A DNA stretch of 64,000 bases, from the NCBI GenBank assembly GCA_038078835.1, contig JBBTQI010000001.1, forward strand, positions 722-64,721, given 5' to 3'. The position numbers and the translations under genes are program-made. Numbering within the stretch: the first letter of the stretch is position 1; the number at the start of each line of letters is the position of its first letter. The DNA is from Patescibacteria group bacterium (GTDB lineage Bacteria > Patescibacteriota > UBA1384 > XYA2-FULL-43-10 > 1-14-0-10-43-13). Below, piece after piece: positions 864 through 63,769 of this stretch. Below the pieces are notes generated by a model that did no database searches, was not told the DNA's origin, and saw only the letters and a list, made by a program, of their open reading frames with translations.

Positions 864-2099
864 CTAATCAGCTATTTTACTGACTCGCCGATCTGCCAAA
901 CTGCTCCCCGCCAACACAAACAGGGTTATTGCCAGAGCCGGATTGTCCGCCCAAGTGTGGAGAAGGGCGGCGGCAATCGAAACAGCAACTATGCCCGCAA
1001 ACAAGCCGACCTCGCCCCGGCGGTACAACTGCCTCAAAACAAAATATATCAACAAAAGCCAAAGAAGCAAACCGATCAAACCCAACTCCAGCCAAAGCTG
1101 AAAGTACCAGCTCTCAGAGATCAAGCCACTGCCATACTTCACCGCCAGCGGTCCGGCCGTGCCCAATCCCGAACCAAGGAGAAATTGGGTTGGCTCATCT
1201 ACCCGCCGGACAATCTCGGCCCAGGAATTAATAATCGCGCTGTAATGCTCCGATTGCGAGGCGCCATGAGTCACGAGATCGCGCCAGAGACCAATGTTCT
1301 GATTCAAAAGCTCGACAGCGCCAACCGCCAAAATCAAAACCCCTCCCGCCGCCGCTCTTATCCAAACCTGCGTCGGCACTAAAAAGAGTGCCAGAAACGC
1401 ACCGCCGATTAATCCGATAAAAGTGGAGCGCGAAAAGGTAAAGATAACGGCAGTACCAATCAAGAGCAGACCAAAGAGATAGCGGCGGTTTTTATGCCGC
1501 CGATAAGCAAACCAGAGGAGGAAAAAGGCGGGCAGAAGATAGGCGCCAAGCTGGTTGGGAGTGCCGATGATGGAAGCGCTTTGGAGAATCGGATTGACGG
1601 CAAAGCCCCCCCAGCCAAAACCTTTACCTGCCGGAATCAGGCCCCACTCCGCCCAATAATTAGCCGGCAGGAATCTCTCGACAAGCGCCCAAAACGCTAC
1701 AAGAACCGCCACGATGAGATAGATTTTTTTAAAACGGTCTATCGTCCCGGCGGCATTGTCCCGCCACGCCAAAATCAGGATAATAACCGCCATTAAGTTC
1801 AAACGATAGCCTTCAAGCGCTCGCCCCGCGTCAGCCGAAAGGAAGAGAACGGAGATAATGCCCAGGATAATTAACGCGCAAGCGGCGACGATCAAGGGCA
1901 AAACCGGCCCTTTCCGGAAAAGATTCCGTTTAAAAATCACAAAAAATGCCCCAATCACAACCGGCTCATACCAGTGGGTTATCCAAAAAACTGCCGACTC
2001 GCTCCAAACCGTCTGCTTTTGCAGCAGATTGATTAAAAAACTCTGAAAGGGCAGATAAATTAAAAGAACCAAAAGAAAATTATCCGGCAGACGGTTCAT
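864..2099 (-). CDS. Polytopic membrane protein, O-antigen ligase/Wzy-like polymerase family (paralog 1 of 3)
   Basis: 411 aa ORF with about 10-12 predicted TM helices and a large loop, matching the Wzy_C / O-antigen ligase architecture. Family assignment is from pattern only. Confidence 0.45.
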   Translation of the reverse strand: MNRLPDNFLLVLLIYLPFQSFLINLLQKQTVWSESAVFWITHWYEPVVIGAFFVIFKRNLFRKGPVLPLIVAACALIILGIISVLFLSADAGRALEGYRLNLMAVIILILAWRDNAAGTIDRFKKIYLIVAVLVAFWALVERFLPANYWAEWGLIPAGKGFGWGGFAVNPILQSASIIGTPNQLGAYLLPAFFLLWFAYRRHKNRRYLFGLLLIGTAVIFTFSRSTFIGLIGGAFLALFLVPTQVWIRAAAGGVLILAVGAVELLNQNIGLWRDLVTHGASQSEHYSAIINSWAEIVRRVDEPTQFLLGSGLGTAGPLAVKYGSGLISESWYFQLWLELGLIGLLLWLLLIYFVLRQLYRRGEVGLFAGIVAVSIAAALLHTWADNPALAITLFVLAGSSLADRRVSKIAD

Positions 2100-3309
2100 T
2101 GTTTACCTCGATAAGGGCCAGGGCCAACCAGAACAGGGCGGCCAGATCATTTTTAAAATAAGTGGTGTCGAAAAAACCGTGAATTAAGATAGCAACAAGA
2201 GCCAGGACCGCCGCCCACTTCGCCGTTCCCCACTGCCGCCGCGCCCGCCGGAAAAATCGACCCAAAAGACCGAAAAAAGCCAAGAGGCCCCAAAAGCCCA
2301 GATTGAGCCAGAGGGCGAGATAGAGGTTGTGCGGATGGAGGGCGTAAGTTAAAAGATAACGCCGGAAACCGATATCGTTCTCTGTTGCGGCGGCAATCGC
2401 CCCCTCGTATCCGCCCAAGCCGAGACCGAAAAGCCAGTTCTCACGCAGAAGAGCCATTGAATAGTTATAAATATCCAGGCGTGAGCGATCAATGTCGGAG
2501 AGGGGCCGTCCCAGGGGAGTATTAAGCCCGACCCAAACCAGGGTTGCGGCCAGTCCCAAAGCAAGGGCAACTTTCGCCGCCGGCACCAGCCGCTGTCCCG
2601 GCAAATTTGCGACAAGCGCCTTTTGGCGCGAGAAGAAAACCAGGGCGCCCAAAGCCAGAGTCAGAGCCAGGGCCAGCAAACCGGCGCGGGAGAGCGCCAA
2701 AAAGATAGCGATAAGAACCGGAACCATAATGCAAGCCAGAGTCAGCCGCTCCCGGTTGTTCCTGGCCAACCCAAAAACCGGCAGCGAGAGAAAGAGCGCC
2801 GGCACCAGAAACATCGCCAAGTAGTTGGGCGATTCAAAGGGACCAAAAGCCCGGAAGTGCTCGGGGTTTAAATATTGAAAGAAGGATGAATCGCCGACCT
2901 GATAAGCCGCCAGCCGAACCGCCCCCAAACGCTGAAGAATCGCCCAGAAAGAGACCAGAAGAGTCGAGAGCAGAAGAGAGTATGACAGCTTGGAGAGATT
3001 GGCCCGGCCGATGCCATTGGCGACACTCCAGGCGTAGAGAGCCGGAATCAGAAACCAGCCCTTAAAGATGCCCAGCGCATTGTAGTGATCGCTCGCCACA
3101 GCAACCGAGACCAGAGCCGTCGTCAAAAAGAGAACAAACCGGAGTGAACTAAATCGAATCCCTGCCCTGTTCCGAATCACCCTTGTTAGAACTGCGGCGA
3201 AAGCCAGCAAAACGGCCGCTTCAAAGATATTGGTTTTGACTGCACCAAAGCTAAAACGGAAAAAATAGAAAGGAATCAAAAAGGTCGCAAGATAAATTAA
3301 CAGGTTCAT
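2080..3309 (-). CDS. O-antigen ligase/Wzy-like polymerase family membrane protein (paralog 2)
   Basis: Multi-TM ORF. Start chosen at internal MNLLIYLATF (ATG 3307-3309), which gives an ATGA overlap with the upstream gene. Similar topology to the neighbours. Confidence 0.45.
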   Translation of the reverse strand: MNLLIYLATFLIPFYFFRFSFGAVKTNIFEAAVLLAFAAVLTRVIRNRAGIRFSSLRFVLFLTTALVSVAVASDHYNALGIFKGWFLIPALYAWSVANGIGRANLSKLSYSLLLSTLLVSFWAILQRLGAVRLAAYQVGDSSFFQYLNPEHFRAFGPFESPNYLAMFLVPALFLSLPVFGLARNNRERLTLACIMVPVLIAIFLALSRAGLLALALTLALGALVFFSRQKALVANLPGQRLVPAAKVALALGLAATLVWVGLNTPLGRPLSDIDRSRLDIYNYSMALLRENWLFGLGLGGYEGAIAAATENDIGFRRYLLTYALHPHNLYLALWLNLGFWGLLAFFGLLGRFFRRARRQWGTAKWAAVLALVAILIHGFFDTTYFKNDLAALFWLALALIEVNNEPSAG

Positions 3310-4613
3310 CTCTGATTTGTCTCCGCCGCATTTTTGGCCGCCTCGGCCAGCGCCAGGAAAACCCAAATACTAAGAACGTAAAGCGTCGAGAAGGTCATAT
3401 ATTGAATAAAGATCGCCACCAGCGCCAGTGTCAGAAAAAGATTGTCAATCTGCCGCTCCGAATAATCATCGATTAGGGCAAAGAGGTTCTCGCCGATAAA
3501 TAATATCAGAAAGAGACCAAAGAGAATAAAGCCGAGCATTCCCTCCTCAACCAGAATCTCCAAATAAAGATTGTTGACAATCTGCCAGGCTGACTTTGCT
3601 CTGATCGGTTCAAACTCCGGCAGAGCACCAAAGGCGCCGGCGCCGACACCCCACGGCTGCTCTACGATCTTGTCGATCGCCACCCGCATTGTGTAGCCGC
3701 GGCTGGTAATGTAATCGTAATCTCTTGCCCCGGAAGCGGCCGTCTCGGTGTCGGGAATCGGCTCGGCCGTGCCCGACTGCTCAACGTAAGACCTGACACC
3801 CTTCTCCCCCGCCGCCAGATAGACGAGACCCATCGCCGCCCCAAAAGCAAAGGAGGCGATAGCAACAATAAGGAGAATCCGTTTGAGATGCGAACGGAAG
3901 CGCCCCAAAAGATACAGGCTAAGCAAAATAAAGCTGACGAGCAAAGACCAGAGCGCGCCGCGGGAGAGTGTCAGAAAAAAAACGGTCAAGAGGATCAGCA
4001 AAGCATAACCGTAGGGACGGCCGCGCCGGCGCATCATCTGCCGCATAGTAAGATAAACGGGGACAAGCAGAAAGTTAGCAAAGTAGAGCGGCTCCAAAAA
4101 GGTGGAGTGAACACGGGGAAACCCAAAGACCTCGCTTTGGTATGGGGAGCGGAGAAAGGAGAGGTGAGCCAGCGCGCCGCTGGCCTCGGCGACAAATTGC
4201 CAGAGAGCAAAGAGGGCGGCGGCCACGCCGACGCCGATAATAATATTATAATATCTCTCCAGCTTGGCCGGCTCGATTGACTGCTTTAGAACAAAGTAAA
4301 CTATAACGACAAAGAGGAAGAGACAGCTGGTAATCAGAGAGCGGAGCGGATTAATTGACCAGATGATTGTCAAAAAAGAGGAGGCGACAAAAGCCAGAAG
4401 AAAATAATCGGTCGCGGTGAGCTTGAGGTTGCGCCAGCTTCCCTGCAGAATATAGACGGCAACCAGCGCCAGAGCAACAAGATAAGAGAGCTTGACGGTG
4501 TAGCCAAAGAGGTCAAGGGTCGGCAGATACTCAAAGGGCAGAAGGAGAAGGAGCAGCAGAGTCAGACGATAAACAAGATTGCCCTCCCAAATTTTGCCAA
4601 GCACTTTTTTCAT
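3306..4613 (-). CDS. O-antigen ligase/Wzy-like polymerase family membrane protein (paralog 3)
   Basis: 435 aa multi-TM ORF starting MKKVLGKIWEG. It has a large soluble loop (SYVEQSGTAEPIPDTETAASGARDYDYITSRGYTMRVAIDKIVEQPWGVG). Confidence 0.45.
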   Translation of the reverse strand: MKKVLGKIWEGNLVYRLTLLLLLLLPFEYLPTLDLFGYTVKLSYLVALALVAVYILQGSWRNLKLTATDYFLLAFVASSFLTIIWSINPLRSLITSCLFLFVVIVYFVLKQSIEPAKLERYYNIIIGVGVAAALFALWQFVAEASGALAHLSFLRSPYQSEVFGFPRVHSTFLEPLYFANFLLVPVYLTMRQMMRRRGRPYGYALLILLTVFFLTLSRGALWSLLVSFILLSLYLLGRFRSHLKRILLIVAIASFAFGAAMGLVYLAAGEKGVRSYVEQSGTAEPIPDTETAASGARDYDYITSRGYTMRVAIDKIVEQPWGVGAGAFGALPEFEPIRAKSAWQIVNNLYLEILVEEGMLGFILFGLFLILFIGENLFALIDDYSERQIDNLFLTLALVAIFIQYMTFSTLYVLSIWVFLALAEAAKNAAETNQR

Positions 4614-4798
4614 CCTTCCCCCAATTATGAGACCATTAAGATTGAAAGCGAAATCTTAATTTTATGGTATCACCTCCTTCCTGAATTTTCCATTAATTTC
4701 CTTTGCGTCGCCAAGTGGTGGTATGGTAAACTAAAAGGGTAAGGATTGTTCCATTTTATAGCTCCTCTGACTCTGGAGGGGGAGTTATCGGTGTAGTT

Positions 4799-6028
4799 GT
4801 GATGATAAAATCTTTGGCCAAAATCTTGACTTTAACAGCACTAGCCAGCTTAATCATCGGTCTTAATCCCGGGCGGCTTTTAGCGTTGGATACCTCCAAG
4901 GATAATTTCTTGAGCGGCGATTATAAAAATAATCTTATTGATGATTACTCCTTTATTGACATTAACTCTGTGGATCAGGCGGCGATTCAGAAATTCCTTG
5001 ACGACAAAGAGTCGCCCCTGCGCGACTACTCCGAAGGCGGCCGCTCGGCCGCTCAAATTATTTACGACGCCGCTCACGGCGCCAATGAAGCCAGCGGCGA
5101 CTGGGGCGGTATCAGCGTCAACACAACAACCGGCACCGTCAGTCCCAAAATTATTCTAACCTATCTGGAGAAGGAACAAAGCCTCATCTCCCGCGACGAC
5201 CGGCCCGACAACGTCCTCATCAAAGCTATGGGCTACCAGTGCTACGTTGGCGTCTCCAATGACAACAACGAAAATACCTGCAACGACCGCTATGAAAATT
5301 TTACCCTCCAGATCGAAAACGCCGCCTGGCAGCTGCGCTACAACTATGAATACGCTAAACGGGGCACCAAACCGAGCGGCGTGGCCACCCACTATTTAAC
5401 CAATGATACAGAAACTTTTTATGGCGAATACAAATACAACAACCCCGACAGTGCTTACTACAACCCCAAATATTACGGCCCCTTTGAGATAACTTTCGCC
5501 AATGCCGCCACCGCTTCCATCTATAGCTACACGCCCTACATCTTTGACAGCTCTTACAACTTCTGGCAGATCTTTAACGACTACTTCACCGCCTCGCCGC
5601 CGCCGCCGCCCACCCCCACAACCAACGACACGGCCAGATTGGTCATAAAGACTTATACCAACCCCGTTACCGTGGGCGGAAGCAAGAGCGCCGAAGATGC
5701 CGTCTTCTTTAACAACACCCTTATCGAGGTCGCCGGCAAGACCGCCTGGCAGCTCACCTTTGAAACCGAGATCGGAACCAAAACCTACACCGTTGAGTAT
5801 AAGAACGGCAACAGCGAGGTTGTCGCAACCAAGGAGATTGAGGTTACCCGGCACAAGACCGCCGACATCAACGGCGATGGCAATGTTGATATCCAGGACC
5901 TCTCCCTTCTGGCCAACTATTGGGGGCAGGAGCACCCCGGCGACCCCTTTGCCAATCTGAACCCGGGCGAGGATGAGGTTGTCGACATTATCGATTTATC
6001 AATCTTGGCCAGCAATTGGAACGGCTAA
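4799..6028 (+). CDS. Secreted protein with C-terminal type I dockerin-like domain
   Basis: Signal peptide MMIKSLAKILTLTALASLIIG, a PPPPPTPTT linker, then DINGDGNVDIQDLSLLANYW ... DEVVDIIDLSILASNW, which matches the duplicated dockerin Ca-binding loop plus helix. GGAGGGGGAG RBS upstream. Confidence 0.6.
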   Translation: MMIKSLAKILTLTALASLIIGLNPGRLLALDTSKDNFLSGDYKNNLIDDYSFIDINSVDQAAIQKFLDDKESPLRDYSEGGRSAAQIIYDAAHGANEASGDWGGISVNTTTGTVSPKIILTYLEKEQSLISRDDRPDNVLIKAMGYQCYVGVSNDNNENTCNDRYENFTLQIENAAWQLRYNYEYAKRGTKPSGVATHYLTNDTETFYGEYKYNNPDSAYYNPKYYGPFEITFANAATASIYSYTPYIFDSSYNFWQIFNDYFTASPPPPPTPTTNDTARLVIKTYTNPVTVGGSKSAEDAVFFNNTLIEVAGKTAWQLTFETEIGTKTYTVEYKNGNSEVVATKEIEVTRHKTADINGDGNVDIQDLSLLANYWGQEHPGDPFANLNPGEDEVVDIIDLSILASNWNG

Positions 6029-6029
6029 T

Positions 6030-6150
6030 CTCCTACAAAATTACAAATTTATCGAAACTACAAATACTACAAAACTATGAATCAGCGATCCCTCTTTGTT
6101 TGTGATTTTGTAAGATTTGTACTTTTGTGTAATTTGTAATTTTGTAGGAG
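6030..6150. repeat. MITE-like element with perfect 19-bp terminal inverted repeats (CTCCTACAAAATTACAAAT)
   Basis: tcctacaaaattacaaatt at 6031-6049 is the exact reverse complement of aatttgtaattttgtagga at 6131-6149. Internal arms are CAAAT/ATTTG-rich. The right TIR supplies the AGGAG SD of the downstream gene. Confidence 0.7.
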
Positions 6151-6156
6151 TGGGTT

Positions 6157-7401
6157 ATGAAAAAAGTTTTGATCTTAAGCGTGGGATTGATATTAAACTT
6201 ACTCGCAATCTCAAGTGTCCGGGCGGAGGGCGGGATCTTTGCCTCCGGCGGCGGTGCCAAGACGGTCGGCCAGACCTTTACCGTTACCGTGGCGGCCAGC
6301 GGCACCAATTTTGATAGCCTTCAAGGTATAATCTCCGTTTCCGGACCGGTTGATGTCGTCTCCTTCGCCGCCGGCGGCGCCACCTGGCTGCCCGGGAAAA
6401 CCCCCTCAAACGGCGGTCAATTTGTCGGCATCACCTCGGAGAGCAGCTCCATTACCGTCGCCACAATCAAGTTGAAGGGTAAATCGGTCGGCAATGGCAA
6501 TGTCTCGGTCAGCGGCGCCAAACTGGCCAACAAGGGCAGTATTGTCGGCACCGGCGCCGGCGGCGCCACTTTTAGCATCGCGCCTGCACCTGATTACCCC
6601 GACAAGGTGGCTATAACCTCGCCGACTCACCCTGACCCCAATGTCGCTTACGAAGCGACCACGGTCACGCTTAATTGGGAAAAGGAGTCGGGCGTCACCG
6701 GCTTTGCCTACGTCCTTGACCAAACCGAGGACACCGCTCCCGCTTCCAAGGTGACCTCAGCCGAAACGACGGTCACCTATGCCGACCAGGCCATCGGCGT
6801 TTATTATTTCCATATCAAAGCCCAAAACAGGGATGGCTGGGGTCCGGTCAACCACTTTAAAATCACCATCAAGGAGCCGGAGGCCAAGATTGATCCGGCG
6901 CTCGCCCCGCCGGCAAATCTCGCCGTCAAAAAGACCGCTGAATTTACAAATGATATCGAAAGTGGTACAGTGACGGGTATCACTATCTCGGGTCAAACCG
7001 AACCCGGTTTTAGCGTCAACTTAACACTCGATCCCGCTCTCACCGTACCGGAGGGTAAAACCTTAACGGCGTTGGCCGGCGCGAACGGCTACTTTGAGCT
7101 TAATCTCGATTATCCCGTCCGAGCCGGTTTTTACAAGCTAACAGTTCAGGGTCAGAAGGACAAAATCCTCACTCCGGTGAGCAACGAACTGCGCTTCGAG
7201 ATTAATCAGGCAGCGGGCGGCACCGTGAATGTCTTGACTGATAATGACCGTTTCCCACCAGTAATCGAACCGCCCAAACCCAAGCAGTGGTACGAAAAGA
7301 TTACCAAATCAATGATTTTTTATGCCGGCGCCGGCGCTCTTGTCTTGATGATACTTTCCAACACCGGCACAGCGTTGTTTTTCAAACGGCGATATCGATA
7401 A
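6157..7401 (+). CDS. Membrane-anchored surface protein with N-terminal cohesin-like module and FN3-like domain
   Basis: Signal peptide followed by GQTFTVTVAASGTNFDSLQGIISVSGPVDVVSFAAG...ITVATIKLKGKSVGNGNVSVSG, a cohesin-like beta-sandwich pattern. C-terminal TM helix plus KRRYR stop-transfer. Confidence 0.5.
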   Translation: MKKVLILSVGLILNLLAISSVRAEGGIFASGGGAKTVGQTFTVTVAASGTNFDSLQGIISVSGPVDVVSFAAGGATWLPGKTPSNGGQFVGITSESSSITVATIKLKGKSVGNGNVSVSGAKLANKGSIVGTGAGGATFSIAPAPDYPDKVAITSPTHPDPNVAYEATTVTLNWEKESGVTGFAYVLDQTEDTAPASKVTSAETTVTYADQAIGVYYFHIKAQNRDGWGPVNHFKITIKEPEAKIDPALAPPANLAVKKTAEFTNDIESGTVTGITISGQTEPGFSVNLTLDPALTVPEGKTLTALAGANGYFELNLDYPVRAGFYKLTVQGQKDKILTPVSNELRFEINQAAGGTVNVLTDNDRFPPVIEPPKPKQWYEKITKSMIFYAGAGALVLMILSNTGTALFFKRRYR

Positions 7402-7408
7402 GCCGCAA

Positions 7409-8740
7409 ATGAAAAAAATTGTCTTAATCTCCTCCGACAAGGTGGGTAGAACGATGGCGGGACCGGGGATCCGCTATTTTGAGATGGCTCGCGCCCTGGC
7501 CCAAGATTTTAACGTCACCCTGGCCGTCCCCAACGAGTGCGATCTGGCCGGCGAGGGCTTCTCTCTTAAGACTTACAACTCGCGCTGGCCGAGCCACACC
7601 CTCAAAGCGACGGTTGCCCCAGCCGATGCGGTTGTTGCCCAAGCCCTCTGGCCCGATCTGCTTTTTTACCTCAAGCGCCATAAAATCAAATATATCGCCG
7701 ACCTCTACGATCCCGTTGTCATTGAGGTGCTTGAATATTTAAAAAACGAACCGCCGGCCCGTCAGCGTCGGACATTTGACTTCCATCGCCGCAATCTCCT
7801 GCTGCAAGTTAATACCGCCAACCACCTCCTTTGCGCCACTCCGACCCAACGCGATTTCTACCTCGGCATCCTCTCCGGCCAGGGCCTGATTACGCCGCGC
7901 GAGTACAGCCAATCGGACGATCTGACCCGCTCCATCTCTCTCTTACCCTTTGGCCTGCCCAAAGATCCGCCCAAGCCGCCCGGCCGCTTTAAATTTGAGG
8001 AACTGTATCCGGCGATTCGACTCTCTGATAAAGTTGTTTACTGGGGCGGGGGCATCTGGAACTGGTTTGATCCCTTGACCGCTATCAAGGCAATCGAGCA
8101 GATCAGCCGGAAGCGGAGTGATATTAAACTGGTTTTTCTGGGCGCCAAGCATCCCAACAAAAAGATTAAAGCCATGGCGGCGGTGACTGAGGCCGTTGAA
8201 TACTGCCGGAAGCACGATTTACTTGACCGCTTCGTCTTCTTCAATTTTGACTGGACTCCTTACGAGGAGCGCGCCGGTTATCTTGCCAGAGCCAATATAG
8301 GCATTTCGACCCACCGCCAAAATCTTGAGACTCACTTCTCCTTCCGGACACGGATTCTTGACTATCTTTGGGCCGAACTGCCGATGGTCCTCACCGAGGG
8401 CGACGCCTTAAGCGAGATGGTGCGAGAAAAAAATCTCGGAGCGGTAATCAAGGCGAGCGATGTTCCGGGTGCGGCCAGAGCCATCATCGAGCTGGCCGAC
8501 AACGGTCGGCGGCGGGACGAGATAAAGCGCAATATCAGAGCGGTCAAAGATCAATACTGCTGGGAGAGAGTCGTTGCCAACCTGGCTGATTTGATTAAGC
8601 GGGACACCCTGCCCGATCGGCCTCTTTCTTACCTCAAACTGTTGCGCCTCGCCAAAAATTTTTACTGGGCGGGAATGATTAAAAAATTAAATTCCAAATC
8701 ACAAATAACAAATGTTTGGAAATTGATAATTGGACTTTGA
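7409..8740 (+). CDS. Glycosyltransferase family 1 (GT4)
   Basis: 443 aa with a GT4-type C-terminal domain (VYWGGGIWNWFDPLTAIKAI...LGAVIKASDVPGAARAI). The last ~18 codons (KKLNSKSQITNVWKLIIGL) are encoded by the repeat element at 8688. Confidence 0.7.
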   Translation: MKKIVLISSDKVGRTMAGPGIRYFEMARALAQDFNVTLAVPNECDLAGEGFSLKTYNSRWPSHTLKATVAPADAVVAQALWPDLLFYLKRHKIKYIADLYDPVVIEVLEYLKNEPPARQRRTFDFHRRNLLLQVNTANHLLCATPTQRDFYLGILSGQGLITPREYSQSDDLTRSISLLPFGLPKDPPKPPGRFKFEELYPAIRLSDKVVYWGGGIWNWFDPLTAIKAIEQISRKRSDIKLVFLGAKHPNKKIKAMAAVTEAVEYCRKHDLLDRFVFFNFDWTPYEERAGYLARANIGISTHRQNLETHFSFRTRILDYLWAELPMVLTEGDALSEMVREKNLGAVIKASDVPGAARAIIELADNGRRRDEIKRNIRAVKDQYCWERVVANLADLIKRDTLPDRPLSYLKLLRLAKNFYWAGMIKKLNSKSQITNVWKLIIGL

Positions 8741-14070: not shown

Positions 14071-16326
14071 TTACTTGCTGTCTTGCTTACTTGCCTGCTC
14101 CTCGGAGCCTTGGCGCAGTGGGGCTGTCTTGCTGACAAAAACGATGTCGGCAATCGCATTTTCCCCGGCGACATTGATGATTTTGATCTCGTCGTCCGCT
14201 TTAATATCGATATCGCCCAGCTTGCGCCAAACAAACTTTTCCACTCCAACATCCTTGTCAACTTGGAACTTGTCACCCTTCGGGTGATCGCCCGCAGGGC
14301 GAAAAACTGAAAACTGGAAACTTCCTGACGAGCCTCCGACAAGGTGGCGAATCCAGAGCTCATAGGAGCCGCTCTCAGTCGCTTTTCCTGACAGAACGCT
14401 CTCCGGCTTGTCGGTGTAGATAAAATCCTGCCGCAGTTGGGTAAAGAGGTGTTTGCGCCAGAAATCATACCGTCCCCGACTCCAACCATCTTCATAGTAG
14501 GCAAACCCCCTTGCCCACTCCGTTATCGGCAATTGTTTAATTGCCTTATTGCCCCACTGTCCCCTTGCCGAATTGCCAATTTTGGTTATTCGATCATTGG
14601 AATTTATTTGGGATTTGTTGTTTGGATTTTGGAATTTGAAAATATGGATATTTTCCCCGAACCTCTTTGTTTCCACCAATCCCTCCTTTGATCTCACCAA
14701 TGCCAGAAGATCGGTCTGATTCCACTTTTTGACGATAACCGGATCGGTCTCTCGCCAAAGATTGGAGGCTTGAGCAAAGCGGCTCTCCGTATCCAGACGA
14801 AGAATGACGCAATCAACGCCGCCCTCTGCCAGCAGAGAGGCAAATTCGCCCTGATCATGCTTTTCGTAAAATTGCGACACTAATTCATTGCGATAGAACC
14901 GCTCGGCCGTCGGCAAAAAAGAGAAGGTCGCGCCATCGTCAAGGCGCGGCACACCCAGCGCCAGAGCCAAGAGATCGGAGTTGGCCGCATCGCGAAATTC
15001 GGCCCGCTCATCTTTAAAGTAGACAAAGCCCAGTCCCGGCGGATAATAGGCCTTTTGACACACACCGCTATCAGCCAGATAATTTTTCAGTTCCCGATAC
15101 TCCGCCGGCACTTTGGTGAGCGGCAGGTAACCGGCATAGTCAAACGTTAAATAGGGCGCGATGATAAATAAGGCGCTGCCGGCAAGCAAGGTCTTAAGGC
15201 CGGAGGCTAAAGGCCGGAGGCTAAAGGCCGATAAGCAAGCGAAAAGATAATCCAAGCCAAAGGCAAAGAGAATAATGGCGGCGGCCGCGACAATGAATTG
15301 GAGATGATAGATCTCGCGGAAAATACCCAGCGCCGGTATCCGCTCAAACAGCGCGACAAAGATTGGCCCCAACGGTCCGCTCGGACCCTTGGGAAAGGGG
15401 GCAACCGATATTAACGTCAATATGCTGGTCAGCGCCAATTCGCGGCGGGGACGATTCCCGAGGCCGAAAAGAGCCGCCAACCAGAAGACAGCCAAACCAA
15501 AAAGATAGCGGGGATCATGCGAGAGGGCGTAAAAGAAATTATGGGTAATCTGGTGATCGGAGAAGTTCAGAAAATTCCCGGCGCTGTGGGGCATCATTCG
15601 CATATACTCCAGCGTTGTGACGGCCACTGCCCTAATCTGCTCCGCACCCTGATCATAGCTCAAAGACAAGACGAACCAGGGCAGAAGAAAGAGGACAAGA
15701 GCCGACCAAGAGAAGATCAAATTAAAGAAACGCTCTCGTCGTCGCCCGGCGGCAACGAGAAGGTTAATCATCAAAAAGAGGGTCAGAAGCAGGCCCGCCT
15801 GGACTTGGGCAAAAACAAGCGAATAAAGAAAACCCAAACCAAGATAGTGCCGCCAGTTTTTTTTCTTGATATTAAAATAAAGGTGGAGAAAAAAGGGCAA
15901 GGCGGCGAAGGCCAAAAGCGACCAGCGGAAACCAACAATTGTTCGGACAAAAAGATAAGGATTAAAGGCGTAAACCAGAGCCGAAATCGTGGCAGCGAGC
16001 CGGTTTACGCCTTGCGACTTAGCGAAAAGAAAAAACCCGGCGGCGGCCAGAGCGTGAAGAAGAATAAGAAAGAGAGCGAAACTGAACTCCGGTCGAAATA
16101 GACCCAGCGGGGCCAGAAGAATCAAGCCGTTTTTGCTGGCAAAGTCAAAGGGATTGCCGGCCCGAAAATCGCCAAACTCCCGCCAAAGATTTCTCATATC
16201 CAGAAGCGGCCAATCCCAATCATAACGAAGGGGCAGGCCGTCTGATCGCAAATGCGATAAAACCAAAACAGCAAGCATCAATAAAGATACCGCAATCACT
16301 TGTTTTGATTTGATTATGTTAAACAT
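14071..16326 (-). CDS. Large GT-C fold membrane protein (YfhO/ArnT-like) with C-terminal extracytoplasmic domain
   Basis: 751 aa with an about 12-TM N-terminal region and a soluble C-terminal domain. Carries in-frame repeat insertions at 14581-14645 and 15193-15236. Confidence 0.55.
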   Translation of the reverse strand: MFNIIKSKQVIAVSLLMLAVLVLSHLRSDGLPLRYDWDWPLLDMRNLWREFGDFRAGNPFDFASKNGLILLAPLGLFRPEFSFALFLILLHALAAAGFFLFAKSQGVNRLAATISALVYAFNPYLFVRTIVGFRWSLLAFAALPFFLHLYFNIKKKNWRHYLGLGFLYSLVFAQVQAGLLLTLFLMINLLVAAGRRRERFFNLIFSWSALVLFLLPWFVLSLSYDQGAEQIRAVAVTTLEYMRMMPHSAGNFLNFSDHQITHNFFYALSHDPRYLFGLAVFWLAALFGLGNRPRRELALTSILTLISVAPFPKGPSGPLGPIFVALFERIPALGIFREIYHLQFIVAAAAIILFAFGLDYLFACLSAFSLRPLASGLKTLLAGSALFIIAPYLTFDYAGYLPLTKVPAEYRELKNYLADSGVCQKAYYPPGLGFVYFKDERAEFRDAANSDLLALALGVPRLDDGATFSFLPTAERFYRNELVSQFYEKHDQGEFASLLAEGGVDCVILRLDTESRFAQASNLWRETDPVIVKKWNQTDLLALVRSKEGLVETKRFGENIHIFKFQNPNNKSQINSNDRITKIGNSARGQWGNKAIKQLPITEWARGFAYYEDGWSRGRYDFWRKHLFTQLRQDFIYTDKPESVLSGKATESGSYELWIRHLVGGSSGSFQFSVFRPAGDHPKGDKFQVDKDVGVEKFVWRKLGDIDIKADDEIKIINVAGENAIADIVFVSKTAPLRQGSEEQASKQDSK
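14581..14645. repeat. CAAAT-family element copy inside CDS (in-frame, encodes FKFQNPNNKSQINSNDRITKIG)
   Basis: ttggaatttatttgggatttgttgtttggattttggaatttg. Same orientation relative to the coding strand as the other intragenic copies. Confidence 0.55.
15193..15236. repeat. GGCC-type 13-mer tandem repeat (AAGGCCGGAGGCT x about 2.7) inside CDS
   Basis: cttaaggccggaggctaaaggccggaggctaaaggccg. In-frame, encodes ...SAFSLRPLASGLK.... Related copies at 1-45 and 57326-57390. Confidence 0.6.
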
Positions 16327-62374: not shown

Positions 62375-62464
62375 CTCCTGCAAAATTACAAATTCAACAA
62401 AATTACGAATCTTACAAATATTTGTAATATTTGTAGTTTCGGGAGATTTGCAATTTTGTAGGAG
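62375..62464. repeat. MITE-like element, same TIR family as 6030..6150 (CTCCTGCAAAATTACAAAT ... ATTTGCAATTTTGTAGGAG)
   Basis: TIRs match with 2 mismatches. The internal acaaattcaacaaaattacgaat is near-identical to the copy at 63694-63716. Confidence 0.65.
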
Positions 62465-62477
62465 ATTGGAGGTAGTG

Positions 62478-63101
62478 ATGCTCGAGGTCAATGTTGAAAA
62501 AATTATGCCGGTGACGGAGGCAAGAGACACGCTTAATAAGATCGTCGACGAGGTTGCGGCGGGCGATGAGCTCTACGTCTTAACGGTGAACGGCAAACCC
62601 AGCGCCGTCCTGGTCGGTGTCCATCATTTAGAGAAACTGACCGGTACCAAAGAAGAGGATCTGGTAGTGACGGCGGCAACATTGCCGGCACCAACCGTCG
62701 AAACGGACACATCAATCCCGCTTAACTCTATAACCGAGTCAGCCCCGACACCCCCTGTTGCGCCGGCGGCATCAACTGTGCCCGAACAGCCGGTCGGGCC
62801 AGCCCCGGCATCAATATCCTCGCCGCTTAATAATACCGATCTTTTTGGCGAGGACGCACTATCAACCCCCGCATTCGACACCGTTTCGCCGGCCGCGCCG
62901 ACAGCTTCGCCAACCCCTCCCGCTCCGCCCGCACTGGAACCGGCGCCGCCGCCCGAAATTAATCCCGCTGACGTTTTTCCCTCAACCGACAATATGGCAA
63001 CACCGCCGCCGGCCGCGCCGGCAACCGGCCAAATGGGAATTCCAGCCGTGACGAACAATCAAAATCCGCTGCCGGCAATTAACAATCCCCTAAATCAATA
63101 A
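62478..63101 (+). CDS. Phd/YefM-type antitoxin-like N-terminal domain fused to about 140 aa Pro/Ala/Thr-rich low-complexity tail
   Basis: MLEVNVEKIMPVTEARDTLNKIVDEVAAGDELYVLTVNGKPSAVLVGVHHLEKL then a P/A-rich tail. GGAGATTGGAGG RBS upstream. Confidence 0.5.
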   Translation: MLEVNVEKIMPVTEARDTLNKIVDEVAAGDELYVLTVNGKPSAVLVGVHHLEKLTGTKEEDLVVTAATLPAPTVETDTSIPLNSITESAPTPPVAPAASTVPEQPVGPAPASISSPLNNTDLFGEDALSTPAFDTVSPAAPTASPTPPAPPALEPAPPPEINPADVFPSTDNMATPPPAAPATGQMGIPAVTNNQNPLPAINNPLNQ

Positions 63102-63113
63102 GACGGAAGAACG

Positions 63114-63347
63114 ATGACACCAGCAAACACTCGGGGAAACAAGAAGAAGACCACTGTTAAAATTGATCAGGATCTCTGCGCCCGCTGTCTAAACTGCACC
63201 CAAATTGTCGAGGAGGTTTTCTTCTACGACGAGAAGGAAGATGAGGTTAAGGTCGACAACTCTGCCATCACCGACGAGAACATCGATCTGGTGAGAGAGG
63301 CCGCGGAGTGCTGCCCCTCCCAGGCAATTATTATCAATGAGGATTAA
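63114..63347 (+). CDS. Small ferredoxin (CxxCxxC...CP single-cluster type)
   Basis: DQDLCARCLNCTQIVEEVFFYDE...AAECCPSQAI. Confidence 0.6.
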   Translation: MTPANTRGNKKKTTVKIDQDLCARCLNCTQIVEEVFFYDEKEDEVKVDNSAITDENIDLVREAAECCPSQAIIINED

Positions 63348-63667
63348 TTGGGACCAAGTCCCAGCTCGCGCCTGATCTCCTCCGGAATCATCTCCGGCGA
63401 CCAGGGCGGATCAAAGACCACGTCGGTCACAACTTCTTCTATCTCTTCTATCTCCGCTGCTTTATCTTTGACATCATCCACGATCATCGCCGCCATCGGG
63501 CAGTGCGGCGTTGTCAGCGTCATTGTCACAATGGCCTTGTTTTTGTTAATTTCAACGCCATAAATCAGACCCATATCATAGACCGAGATCCCGATCTCCG
63601 GATCGGTCACCTCTTTGATCTTTGCTAAAACCGCGAGAGCCAATTTATCATTTTTGTCAATCTTCAT
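63344..63667 (-). CDS. DUF59/SufT-like Fe-S cluster assembly protein (MIP18 family)
   Basis: VTDPEIGISVYDMGLIYGVEI...TMTLTTPHCPMAAMIVDDV. Confidence 0.75.
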   Translation of the reverse strand: MKIDKNDKLALAVLAKIKEVTDPEIGISVYDMGLIYGVEINKNKAIVTMTLTTPHCPMAAMIVDDVKDKAAEIEEIEEVVTDVVFDPPWSPEMIPEEIRRELGLGPN

Positions 63668-63680
63668 TGTACCTCCAGTC

Positions 63681-63769
63681 CTCCGACAAAACTACAAATT
63701 CAACAAAATTACGAATTTTACAAATACATGTGGCGAGCAGAGTCGAATCCATTTGTAAATTTACAAGAG
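63681..63769. repeat. MITE-like CAAAT element copy (ACAAATTCAACAAAATTACGAAT core) between DUF59 gene and SOD gene
   Basis: ctccgacaaaactacaaattcaacaaaattacgaattttacaaatac paired with atttgtaaatttacaagag. Confidence 0.55.

What the first reader, a model, noticed from the sequence alone, without database searches (positions are those of the whole stretch)
4799..7401. Adjacent dockerin-bearing secreted protein and membrane-anchored cohesin-like protein
The 409 aa protein ends in a duplicated dockerin-type Ca-binding segment (DINGDGNVDIQDLSLLANYW ... DEVVDIIDLSILASNW). The next gene encodes a signal peptide, a cohesin-like beta-sandwich (GQTFTVTVAASG...ITVATIKLKGKSVGNGNVSVSG), FN3-like domains and a C-terminal TM anchor. 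A self-contained cohesin-dockerin pair beside a glycan locus suggests a surface tethering system rather than a cellulosome. The anchored protein may display the secreted partner on the glycosylated envelope.
Basis: partly seen in the sequence, partly recalled or inferred. Interest (0 to 1): 0.6.

Follow-up and report, generated by a model that had tools for sequence, protein, structure and literature searches.

The report
Dockerin cargo with membrane cohesin anchor
Two neighbouring genes of an uncultivated ultra-small (Patescibacteria) bacterium encode a secreted protein ending in a dockerin "plug" and a membrane-anchored protein tipped with a very divergent cohesin "socket"; this plug-and-socket pair is conserved next to surface-sugar synthesis genes and probably holds an unknown enzyme on the cell surface.

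Summary
ORF A (4799-6028, 409 aa) has a signal peptide, an uncharacterised domain with an invariant Glu, an Ig-like module and a real two-repeat dockerin. The dockerin scores above the Pfam threshold, and the family profile matches solved dockerins at E=2.8e-14. ORF B (6157-7401, 414 aa) has a signal peptide, three beta-sandwich domains and a C-terminal membrane helix. Pfam's Cohesin model misses B's first domain. However, its family profile aligns full-length with Pfam-validated cohesins (hhalign 98.75%, E=1.5e-16). The best solved-structure match to the model is the cohesin-FN3 module of Clostridium perfringens GH84C.

The window holds one dockerin and one cohesin. In 40 of 40 species-representative genomes carrying a B homologue, a dockerin gene lies directly upstream. 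The dockerin stays constant while its cargo changes. In 4 of 4 loci found from A homologues, a B-type gene follows.

Binding itself and the cargo's activity remain inferred. I class it as a new variant of a known kind, of moderate interest.

The parts
4799..6028 (+). ORF A: secreted dockerin-bearing cargo protein (409 aa; GTG 4799, alternative ATG 4802; stop 6026-6028)
   Evidence: ORF list. 100% identical to NCBI 'hypothetical protein AAB360_00025 [Patescibacteria group bacterium]'. AF2 model pLDDT 91.
4799..4885 (+). A signal peptide (aa 1-29, ...GRLLA | LDTS)
   Evidence: Most hydrophobic 19-aa windows lie at the N-terminus. Predicted N-terminal helix 2-22. The cleavage site is read from the sequence and is inferred.
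4886..5593 (+). A cargo domain (aa 30-265), mostly alpha-helical and uncharacterised. Invariant Glu126 lies in the EKEQS motif (nt 5168-5182). Other conserved motifs are AMGY, two Cys, and YxYTP (nt 5522-5539).
   Evidence: Conservation across three subtypes. No hit in Pfam, NCBIfam, PHROGs, PDB sequences or Foldseek against PDB and BFVD.
5594..5623 (+). Pro/Thr linker SPPPPPTPTT (aa 266-275)
   Evidence: Read from the sequence.
5624..5851 (+). Ig-like 'X' module directly preceding the dockerin (aa 276-351)
   Evidence: AF2 beta strands 281-351. Foldseek hits to CbhA FN3-like modules 3pe9. The module is found immediately before the dockerin in 27/42 upstream dockerin ORFs and with all four cargo types.
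5852..6025 (+). Dockerin (aa 352-409). Repeat 1 is DINGDGNVDIQDLSLLANYW (nt 5864-5923). Repeat 2 is NLNPGEDEVVDIIDLSILASNW (nt 5954-6019).
   Evidence: Pfam PF00404 25.6 bits against a cut-off of 22.9. Family profile against PDB dockerins: 2y3n_B 2.8e-14, 4fl4_A 6.4e-9, 5nrk_B, 2jnk_A, 1ohz_B. AF2 helices 365-373 and 397-405.
6029..6156 (+). A-B spacer: 45-nt-arm imperfect palindrome (6030-6074 / 6106-6150) whose 3' arm contains B's Shine-Dalgarno GGAG
   Evidence: the repeat finder. RNA fold -46.1 kcal/mol, z=-9.1. The 16-nt unit recurs at two other gene starts in the window.
6157..7401 (+). ORF B: membrane-anchored cohesin-FN3-Ig protein (414 aa)
   Evidence: ORF list. 100% identical to NCBI AAB360_00030. 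AF2 pLDDT 93.
6157..6225 (+). B signal peptide (aa 1-23, ...SSVRA | EGG)
   Evidence: Hydrophobicity. Predicted helix 2-16. Conserved ...A-AGG junction in the family. Cleavage is inferred.
6226..6594 (+). Divergent cohesin domain (aa 24-146), membrane-distal
   Evidence: No Pfam Cohesin hit. hhalign against Pfam-validated cohesins gives 98.75%, E=1.5e-16 over 120 columns. An intermediate profile hits R. flavefaciens cohesins 5m2o_A and 5aoz_A. Foldseek top PDB hit is 2w1n, a cohesin+FN3 module.
6604..6876 (+). FN3 domain (aa ~150-240)
   Evidence: phmmer against integrin beta-4 FN3, 6gvl_A E=0.007. Foldseek FN3 tandems. Homologues are named 'fibronectin type III domain-containing' or carry PF00041.
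6889..7236 (+). Third beta-sandwich (Ig/FN3-like) stalk domain (aa ~245-360)
   Evidence: AF2 strands 253-360. No specific family match.
7312..7398 (+). Transmembrane helix MIFYAGAGALVLMILSNTGTALFF (aa 386-409) followed by the cytoplasmic tail KRRYR
   Evidence: Sequence. AF2 helix 384-413. A hydrophobic stretch followed by basic residues is conserved across 50 homologues.

Best explanation
This is a two-gene, non-cellulosomal cohesin-dockerin docking cassette of a Berkelbacteria-like Patescibacteria (CPR) bacterium.

ORF B is a type I membrane protein. After signal-peptide cleavage it is held by one C-terminal helix with a basic tail inside the cell. It projects a stalk of two FN3/Ig-like domains with a single, very divergent cohesin at the far end.

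ORF A is exported by its signal peptide. Its C-terminal Ig-like module plus two-repeat dockerin plugs, presumably with calcium, into B's cohesin. This keeps A's N-terminal cargo domain about 10 nm above the membrane rather than letting it diffuse away from a cell with no outer membrane.

The cargo domain has no known relatives. It keeps an invariant glutamate, two cysteines and several aromatic residues. In other species the same dockerin tail carries a C39-like cysteine peptidase or a large glycosidase-like protein. The cargo is therefore most likely an extracytoplasmic hydrolase acting on the cell's own envelope polymers: the polysaccharide made by the neighbouring Wzy/flippase/glycosyltransferase genes, or peptidoglycan.

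What is shown: domain identities, topology signals, conserved adjacency and cargo swapping. What is inferred: cohesin-dockerin binding, calcium dependence, enzyme activity and substrate.
For: Dockerin:
- Pfam hit above threshold.
- Profile against solved dockerins E=2.8e-14 across both repeats.
- Two predicted F-hand helices.

Cohesin:
- A search of 1.84 billion representatives with B domain 1 finds remote relatives.
- The matched regions of those relatives are Pfam Cohesin in 11 of 40. Of nine checked individually, five pass the gathering score and those five cover from model position 3-11 to position 118-127 of 139.
- hhalign of B domain 1 against that validated set gives 98.75%, E=1.5e-16.
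- The intermediate profile hits R. flavefaciens cohesins full-length.
- Foldseek top PDB hit of the B model is the Coh-FN3 module 2w1n.

Pairing:
- One dockerin and one cohesin in 64 kb.
- 40/40 species-representative loci with B have a dockerin ORF immediately upstream on the same strand. Two loci have two tandem dockerin genes.
- 4/4 loci retrieved from A homologues have a B-type gene downstream although the other neighbours differ.
- Cargo varies among three divergent subtypes of the A domain, Peptidase_C39_2+He_PIG, and a 1105-aa protein with a weak arabinofuranosidase-C hit. The X-module/dockerin tail is retained throughout.

Context: Wzy_C x3, GT4, flippase, GT2, PIG-V-like glycosyltransferase and deacetylase, conserved in relatives.
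Against: - Pfam Cohesin does not detect B.
- B's own profile does not reach solved cohesins. It gives only weak antibody-VH-like matches.
- The cohesin link is transitive, and the validated set was chosen from hits to B's profile.
- The domain is about 120 aa, shorter than the 139-position Pfam model.
- No domain-level structural superposition and no complex prediction could be run.
- All loci come from one CPR clade, so conserved adjacency is partly shared ancestry.
- CPR genomes carry other cohesin-like domains, 16 of 84 of them in proteins that also carry dockerins. These could be alternative partners.
- The enzyme role of the cargo rests only on conserved residues, cargo swaps and context. 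No fold or family match was found.
Confidence: 0.66

Rival explanations
1. The two modules are real but are not partners. A's dockerin binds a different cohesin-like domain, elsewhere in the genome or on a host or neighbour cell. B's tip domain binds something else. The genes are adjacent only because both belong to the envelope/glycan locus.
For: CPR genomes encode many other cohesin-like domains, 16 of 84 of them in proteins that also carry dockerins. Only 64 kb of this genome was visible. Binding was not tested.
Against: A-B adjacency is 40/40 and 4/4, and it survives changes in cargo and in other neighbours. The dockerin is the constant element of the upstream gene. There is only one of each module in the window.
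Confidence: 0.14
2. B is an adhesin or envelope stalk protein whose tip is a generic Ig-like, possibly glycan-binding, domain rather than a functional cohesin. A's dockerin-like tail is only a calcium-stabilised C-terminal module.
For: No Pfam Cohesin hit. Weak Big_7 and BatD hits among family members. Most Foldseek hits are FN3/Ig tandems. The domain is short, about 120 aa.
Against: Full-length profile-profile match to Pfam-validated cohesins. PDB cohesins are reached by the intermediate profile. A cohesin-FN3 structure is the top fold hit. This reading does not explain why the gene upstream always ends in a dockerin.
Confidence: 0.1
3. It is a minimal cellulosome-like system for degrading external plant or microbial polysaccharide as a nutrient source.
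For: Cohesin-dockerin systems are best known from cellulosomes. One relative (L040) carries a large glycosidase-like cargo.
Against: There is a single cohesin, no CBM, and no recognisable CAZyme in A. The neighbours are biosynthetic: Wzy_C, flippase and glycosyltransferases. The cargo in most species is the same uncharacterised domain.
Confidence: 0.04

Closest known systems
Clostridium perfringens non-cellulosomal cohesin-dockerin toxin complexes (GH84C/NagJ cohesin-FN3 module, PDB 2w1n; dockerin-bearing mu-toxin/NagH, 2jnk/2ozn)
   Same: Non-cellulosomal. One cohesin is followed directly by an FN3 domain. 2w1n is the best fold hit. The C. perfringens dockerin 2jnk_A is among the profile hits. 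It is a one-to-one docking of an enzyme.
   Different: There the cohesin sits inside a secreted multimodular glycosidase, not on a membrane-anchored stalk. The partners are known CAZymes. Here the cargo domain is unknown, the genes are adjacent, and they are embedded in a glycan biosynthesis locus of a CPR bacterium. Details of the C. perfringens system are from my own knowledge apart from the PDB descriptions.
Single-cohesin anchoring scaffoldins of cellulosomes (C. thermocellum SdbA/OlpA with SLH repeats; R. flavefaciens ScaE with a sortase signal)
   Same: A cell-bound protein with one cohesin retains a dockerin-bearing partner at the surface. An X-module+dockerin dyad sits on the partner, as in type II/III X-Doc. 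The intermediate profile reaches R. flavefaciens cohesins.
   Different: The anchor here is a C-terminal transmembrane helix, with no SLH or LPXTG visible in the sequence. The partner is a single enzyme-like protein rather than a multi-cohesin scaffoldin. The cohesin is too divergent for Pfam. There are no cellulases. Properties of SdbA, OlpA and ScaE are from my own knowledge.
Non-cellulosomal cohesin- and dockerin-like modules surveyed across Bacteria and Archaea (Peer et al. 2009, from memory; not retrieved here)
   Same: The general class is the same: cohesin and dockerin modules in organisms with no cellulosome, often single copies on hypothetical proteins.
   Different: I found no paper describing this syntenic CPR cassette, its cargo domain or its link to Wzy/flippase loci. 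A Saccharibacteria Tn-seq study mentions only an unrelated 927-aa essential dockerin-domain protein (PMC10633639).
Hydrolases encoded within exopolysaccharide operons (BcsZ, PslG, PelA, AlgL) and modular autolysins with swappable catalytic domains
   Same: This is a functional analogy only. An extracytoplasmic enzyme is encoded among polysaccharide assembly genes. Across species a constant anchoring module is combined with interchangeable hydrolase-type domains.
   Different: There is no sequence or fold relationship. Anchoring here is non-covalent, to a dedicated membrane protein. Activity is untested. The analogy rests on my own knowledge.

Membership tests
Dockerin (Pfam PF00404, type I-like) | Significant match to the family model | tested here: met
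   25.6 bits against a gathering score of 22.9, E=1.4e-5. Family-tail profile against PDB dockerins down to E=2.8e-14.
Dockerin (Pfam PF00404, type I-like) | Two tandem ~22-residue F-hand repeats, each a 12-residue Ca-binding loop followed by a helix | tested here: met
   Repeat 1 is D356-x-N-x-D-x-x-x-D-x-x-D367. Repeat 2 reads N390-P-G-E-D394-x-x-x-D398-x-x-D401, so positions 1, 5, 9 and 12 are kept and position 3 is Gly. Homologues often have the canonical DLNGDGxVD. AF2 helices 365-373 and 397-405.
Dockerin (Pfam PF00404, type I-like) | Ca2+-dependent binding to a cohesin | not testable with these tools
   No multimer prediction or experiment was available. Support is only genomic.
Cohesin (Pfam PF00963) | Significant match to the family model | tested here: not met
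   No Cohesin hit for B at E<=1, nor for 26 family members of domain 1 at E<=10.
Cohesin (Pfam PF00963) | Homology to bona fide cohesins over the whole domain | tested here: met
   hhalign of B-domain-1 profile against eight relatives that are Pfam Cohesin positive (five above the gathering score): 98.75%, E=1.5e-16, 120 columns. The intermediate profile hits PDB cohesins 5m2o_A at 1.4e-4 and 5aoz_A at 2.4e-4, full-length. Caveat: the comparison set was drawn from hits to B's own profile.
Cohesin (Pfam PF00963) | Nine-stranded beta-sandwich with jelly-roll topology | tested here: inconclusive
Cohesin (Pfam PF00963) | Binds a dockerin | not testable with these tools
   Inferred from the invariant upstream dockerin gene.
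Cellulosome | Multi-cohesin scaffoldin with CBM, plus several dockerin-bearing plant-cell-wall CAZymes | tested here: not met
   One cohesin and one dockerin in 64 kb. No CBM or CAZyme domain in A or B. The neighbours are biosynthetic.
Cell-surface anchoring scaffoldin (SLH- or sortase-anchored) | SLH repeats or an LPXTG sorting signal | tested here: not met
   No SLH hit in Pfam. The C-terminus is a hydrophobic helix followed by KRRYR, with no LPXTG.
Fibronectin type III domain (B aa ~150-240) | Sequence or fold match to FN3 | tested here: met
   phmmer against integrin beta-4 FN3, E=0.007. Numerous Foldseek FN3 tandem hits at E about 1e-7 to 1e-8. Homologue P0119 carries PF00041.
Lysozyme-like / lytic transglycosylase superfamily (considered for A's cargo domain) | Fold or profile match; catalytic Glu at the end of a helix | tested here: inconclusive
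   Invariant Glu126 lies at the C-terminal end of helix 116-127 in an E-x-S motif. No Pfam, PDB-sequence, PHROG or Foldseek match appears in the lists returned. I do not file it there.

The most novel reading that the evidence does not exclude
Berkelbacteria-like CPR bacteria use a dedicated plug-and-socket cassette to hold interchangeable extracytoplasmic enzymes at the site of envelope-glycan assembly. The socket is a membrane-anchored cohesin too divergent for current models. The plug is an X-module plus dockerin. In effect the cassette substitutes for a periplasm. The commonest cargo, A's N-terminal domain, would be the founding member of a new enzyme family, possibly with a new fold, that acts on CPR cell-wall or surface polysaccharide through an invariant glutamate.
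Probability: 0.3. Interest if true: 0.68.

Novelty: new variant of a known kind. Interest (0 to 1): 0.5.

Why it matters
Cohesin-dockerin docking is well understood in cellulosomes. Its roles elsewhere are mostly unknown. Here it appears as a compact, syntenic cassette in organisms that cannot be cultured, next to the genes that build their surface sugars.

If the pairing is real, it matters in three ways:
- It shows how a cell without an outer membrane keeps a secreted enzyme at its surface.
- It provides a naturally orthogonal, very divergent cohesin-dockerin pair for protein engineering.
- It points to an abundant domain family (hundreds of clusters) with an invariant glutamate and no detectable relatives, a candidate new envelope-processing enzyme.

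It also shows that Pfam's Cohesin model misses this CPR lineage, so censuses of cohesins probably undercount them.

Tried and rejected
- **Direct Pfam/NCBIfam scans of B for Cohesin.** No hit.
- **B-domain-1 profile against PDB sequences.** This gave only weak antibody-VH matches caused by an 'SGGG..G.S..V..ASG..F' motif resembling VH framework 1. I judged this compositional or convergent, not homology.
- **Cargo domain of A.** Pfam, NCBIfam, PHROGs, PDB phmmer/hmmsearch with two different alignments, and Foldseek against PDB and BFVD returned only Ig-like hits to the X module or nothing. A lysozyme-like reading (E-x-S at a helix end) stays a guess.
- **Covariation between dockerin repeat-2 type and the cohesin loop type (WLPGK against short).** The two types tended to co-occur in my manual reading of the listing (the script's own repeat-2 labels were partly wrong). 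But both track clades, so this is not independent evidence.
- **Literature.** No description of this cassette was found. The essential dockerin-domain protein SEML1_0315 of Southlakia is 927 aa and is not an A homologue by size or architecture.
- **Consensus promoter/terminator scan of 4500-7600.** Nothing above shuffles.
- **Cellulosome reading.** Rejected (see rivals).
Full report
**Observation.** ORF A is 4799-6028 (+), 409 aa from a GTG; NCBI calls it from the next ATG as a 408-aa 'hypothetical protein AAB360_00025' of a Patescibacteria-group MAG. ORF B is 6157-7401 (+), 414 aa, and is 100% identical to AAB360_00030. The window has no tRNA or Rfam hit.

**ORF A anatomy.**
- The N-terminus is hydrophobic and ends in ...RLLA|LDTS.
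- A mostly helical domain spans aa 30-265.
- A Pro/Thr linker (SPPPPPTPTT) spans aa 266-275.
- An Ig-like beta module spans aa 276-351.
- The tail spans aa 352-409 and has two helices at 365-373 and 397-405 (AF2 model, pLDDT 91).

**The tail is a dockerin.** Pfam Dockerin_1 scores above its gathering threshold (25.6 against 22.9 bits). A profile of 29 family tails hits solved dockerins across both repeats: 2y3n_B at E=2.8e-14, 4fl4_A at 6.4e-9, then 5nrk_B, 2jnk_A and 1ohz_B. Repeat 1 is a canonical loop (D-x-N-x-D...D...D). Repeat 2 (N-P-G-E-D-E-V-V-D-I-I-D) keeps loop positions 1, 5, 9 and 12. Many homologues have the canonical DLNGDGxVD instead. Within each protein the two repeat helices are near-identical (DLS[IL]LA..W twice). 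They change together between lineages, as in dual-binding-mode dockerins; that comparison is from my own knowledge.

**ORF B anatomy.** The AF2 model (pLDDT 93) shows:
- a signal-peptide helix;
- three beta-sandwich domains at about 24-146, 150-240 and 245-360;
- a linker;
- a C-terminal helix at 384-413. The hydrophobic stretch is aa 386-409, followed by KRRYR.

The hydrophobic-then-basic C-terminus is conserved in 50 aligned homologues. The predicted topology therefore has a small cytoplasmic tail, one membrane span and a stalk, with domain 1 furthest from the membrane. Domain 2 is FN3.

**Is domain 1 a cohesin?**

Direct tests fail. There is no Pfam Cohesin hit for B or for 26 family members. 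The family profile does not reach solved cohesins. It finds only weak antibody-VH-like matches, which I attribute to a short framework-like motif.

Three further lines support cohesin identity.
1. **Fold.** The best Foldseek PDB match of the whole model is 2w1n, the cohesin+FN3 double module of C. perfringens GH84C. The match has E=4.7e-9 and all 228 residues aligned, ahead of many FN3 tandems.
2. **Remote relatives.** An HMMER search of 1.84 billion representatives with the domain-1 profile found remote single-stretch relatives beyond the family itself. Cut to the matched region only, 11 of 40 are Pfam Cohesin, best 1.8e-9. Nine were checked individually. Five of them pass the gathering score, and those five cover from model position 3-11 to position 118-127 of 139.
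3. **Profile-profile comparison.** hhalign of B's domain-1 profile against eight such validated cohesins gives 98.75% probability, E=1.5e-16, over 120 columns. The broader intermediate profile reaches R. flavefaciens cohesins 5m2o_A and 5aoz_A full-length at about 1e-4.

**Are A and B partners?**
- Local HMMs built from the family alignments find exactly one dockerin and one B-type cohesin in the 64-kb window.
- A scan of one genome per species (185,579 species) with the B alignment returned 40 loci carrying a B homologue. Their records are labelled Berkelbacteria, 'Saccharibacteria' (pipeline labels), Patescibacteria-group, or in a few cases only 'bacterium'.
- In 40 of 40 of these loci, an ORF ending in a dockerin lies immediately upstream on the same strand. 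L008 and L019 have two such ORFs in tandem.
- Starting instead from four A homologues on long contigs, 4 of 4 have a B-type cohesin gene downstream. In one case a small gene intervenes. This holds although the other neighbours differ: a pilin/T2SSE region in L050 and a divergent flippase in L052.

The upstream gene's cargo is not constant.
- Most loci carry A's N-terminal domain or one of two divergent subtypes. The motifs are KEQS, RESS or DKES, then GY, then YxYTP, and all three subtypes are alignable.
- L019 carries Peptidase_C39_2 with He_PIG repeats.
- L040 carries a 1105-aa protein with a weak arabinofuranosidase-C match.

The Ig-like module directly precedes the dockerin in 27 of 42 of these ORFs and with every cargo type. 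This resembles the X-Doc dyads of type II/III systems.

A constant plug on varying cargo, always next to the same socket gene, is what a docking pair predicts. It is hard to explain otherwise. Physical binding itself remains inferred.

**Context.** Upstream and divergent are three Wzy_C (O-antigen ligase/polymerase-like) paralogues. Downstream are a GT4, a Polysacc_synt/MurJ-like flippase, a GT2, a PIG-V-like GT-C, a polysaccharide deacetylase and another GT2. The same arrangement recurs in relatives. This is a surface-glycan assembly locus, not a degradative one.

**Cargo function.** The A domain has about 336 database relatives. It has no match in Pfam, NCBIfam, PHROGs, PDB sequences (two profiles) or Foldseek against PDB and BFVD. 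Across all three subtypes the invariant residues are one Glu (E126, at the end of helix 116-127), two Cys, a Gly-Tyr, a Gln and the YTP motif.

Three observations guide my best guess: the invariant acidic residue, the swaps with a cysteine peptidase and a glycosidase-like protein, and the biosynthetic glycan setting. From these I suggest an extracytoplasmic hydrolase or transglycosylase acting on the cell's own envelope polymer. Known analogies are the hydrolases encoded in EPS operons and modular autolysins. I give this sub-claim about 35%.

**Comparison with known systems.** In how it works, this is closest to two things:
- single-cohesin anchoring proteins of cellulosomes (SdbA, ScaE);
- the non-cellulosomal C. 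perfringens cohesin-FN3/dockerin complexes.

It differs in five ways:
- a transmembrane anchor instead of SLH or sortase;
- a cohesin invisible to Pfam;
- a cargo domain of unknown kind;
- strict two-gene synteny;
- a biosynthetic CPR context.

It is not a cellulosome. Literature searches found no description of this cassette. A Saccharibacteria Tn-seq paper reports an unrelated essential dockerin-domain protein (PMC10633639).

**Verdict.**
- Observation: confirmed.
- Interpretation: supported.
- Mechanism: cohesin-dockerin surface tether at about 0.66 confidence.
- Novelty: new variant of a known kind.
- Interest: 0.5.

The most useful next step is a multimer prediction or a simple pull-down of the two modules.

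Noticed in passing
window 6029-6156: The 128-nt spacer between A and B is a long imperfect palindrome, with arms 6030-6074 and 6106-6150 (45 nt, 84% complementary). As RNA it folds at -46.1 kcal/mol (z=-9.1). The 5' arm starts 2 nt after A's stop. The 3' arm ends in GTAGGAG, the Shine-Dalgarno of B, so the hairpin would mask B's ribosome-binding site.
   Followed up: partly
window 6033-6147, 62378-62461, 63684-63716: The 16-nt unit CTACAAAATTACAAAT recurs 11 times (up to 3 mismatches) against 1.2 expected. In two of the three clusters the copies are 17 nt apart (34 nt in the A-B spacer), and all three clusters lie just upstream of a start codon: B, a Phd/YefM-like ORF starting at ATG 62478, and ORF 63344-63667 on the minus strand. 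This could be a genome-specific operator array, a 5'-UTR element or a REP-like repeat.
   Followed up: partly
L003, L007, L015, L036 (spacer between the dockerin gene and the cohesin gene): Related loci also have strong hairpins in the same spacer (z -4 to -7), in at least two loci (L007, L036) visibly built from short tandem units. The sequences are unrelated to the window's. Other loci have spacers of under 55 nt with no hairpin.
   Followed up: partly
window 864-4613 (- strand): Three consecutive Wzy_C (O-antigen ligase/polymerase or PglL-like) paralogues are transcribed divergently from A. The triplet recurs in relatives, sometimes with a DUF4012 gene. Whether they polymerise a glycan or glycosylate proteins such as A and B is open.
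   Followed up: no
window ~16000-48000: G+C drops from about 0.50-0.53 to 0.39-0.46 across roughly 32 kb of minus-strand genes and then returns to about 0.50. The region includes several 750-870-aa ORFs. ORF 14071-16326, which lies just before the drop, has no Pfam match. This may be an acquired or fast-evolving glycan island.
   Followed up: no
L009 5535-6500, L015 5738-6793 versus L008, L016, L034: A small module (consensus I..FL...GS.LA.Y.I.E.I.VPYP) sits N-terminal to the cargo domain in some dockerin proteins and C-terminal to it in others. This looks like a domain permutation within the cargo family.
   Followed up: no
window 6226-6300 (B aa 24-50): The start of B's cohesin (ASGGGAKTVGQTFTVTVAASGTNF) mimics antibody VH framework 1 (ESGGG..PG.SL.LSCAASGFTF). 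This is enough to pull hundreds of Fab heavy chains as weak PDB hits. It is a likely source of spurious 'immunoglobulin' annotations.
   Followed up: no
proteins P0276-P0371 (remote hits): A large family of cohesin-like domains (consensus ...FNAAQATVSVSSNL...GDCNF...NPSFAGAILGGSS..CTVYTL.LK...GTGT...) is mostly not recognised by Pfam Cohesin. 16 of 84 proteins also carry a dockerin, which suggests a wider, under-annotated cohesin-dockerin network.
   Followed up: partly
window 62478-63101: An ORF has a Phd/YefM-antitoxin-like N-terminus (MLEVNVEKIMPVTEARDTLNKIVDEV...) fused to a Pro/Ala/Thr-rich low-complexity tail of about 140 aa. No toxin partner was examined.
   Followed up: no
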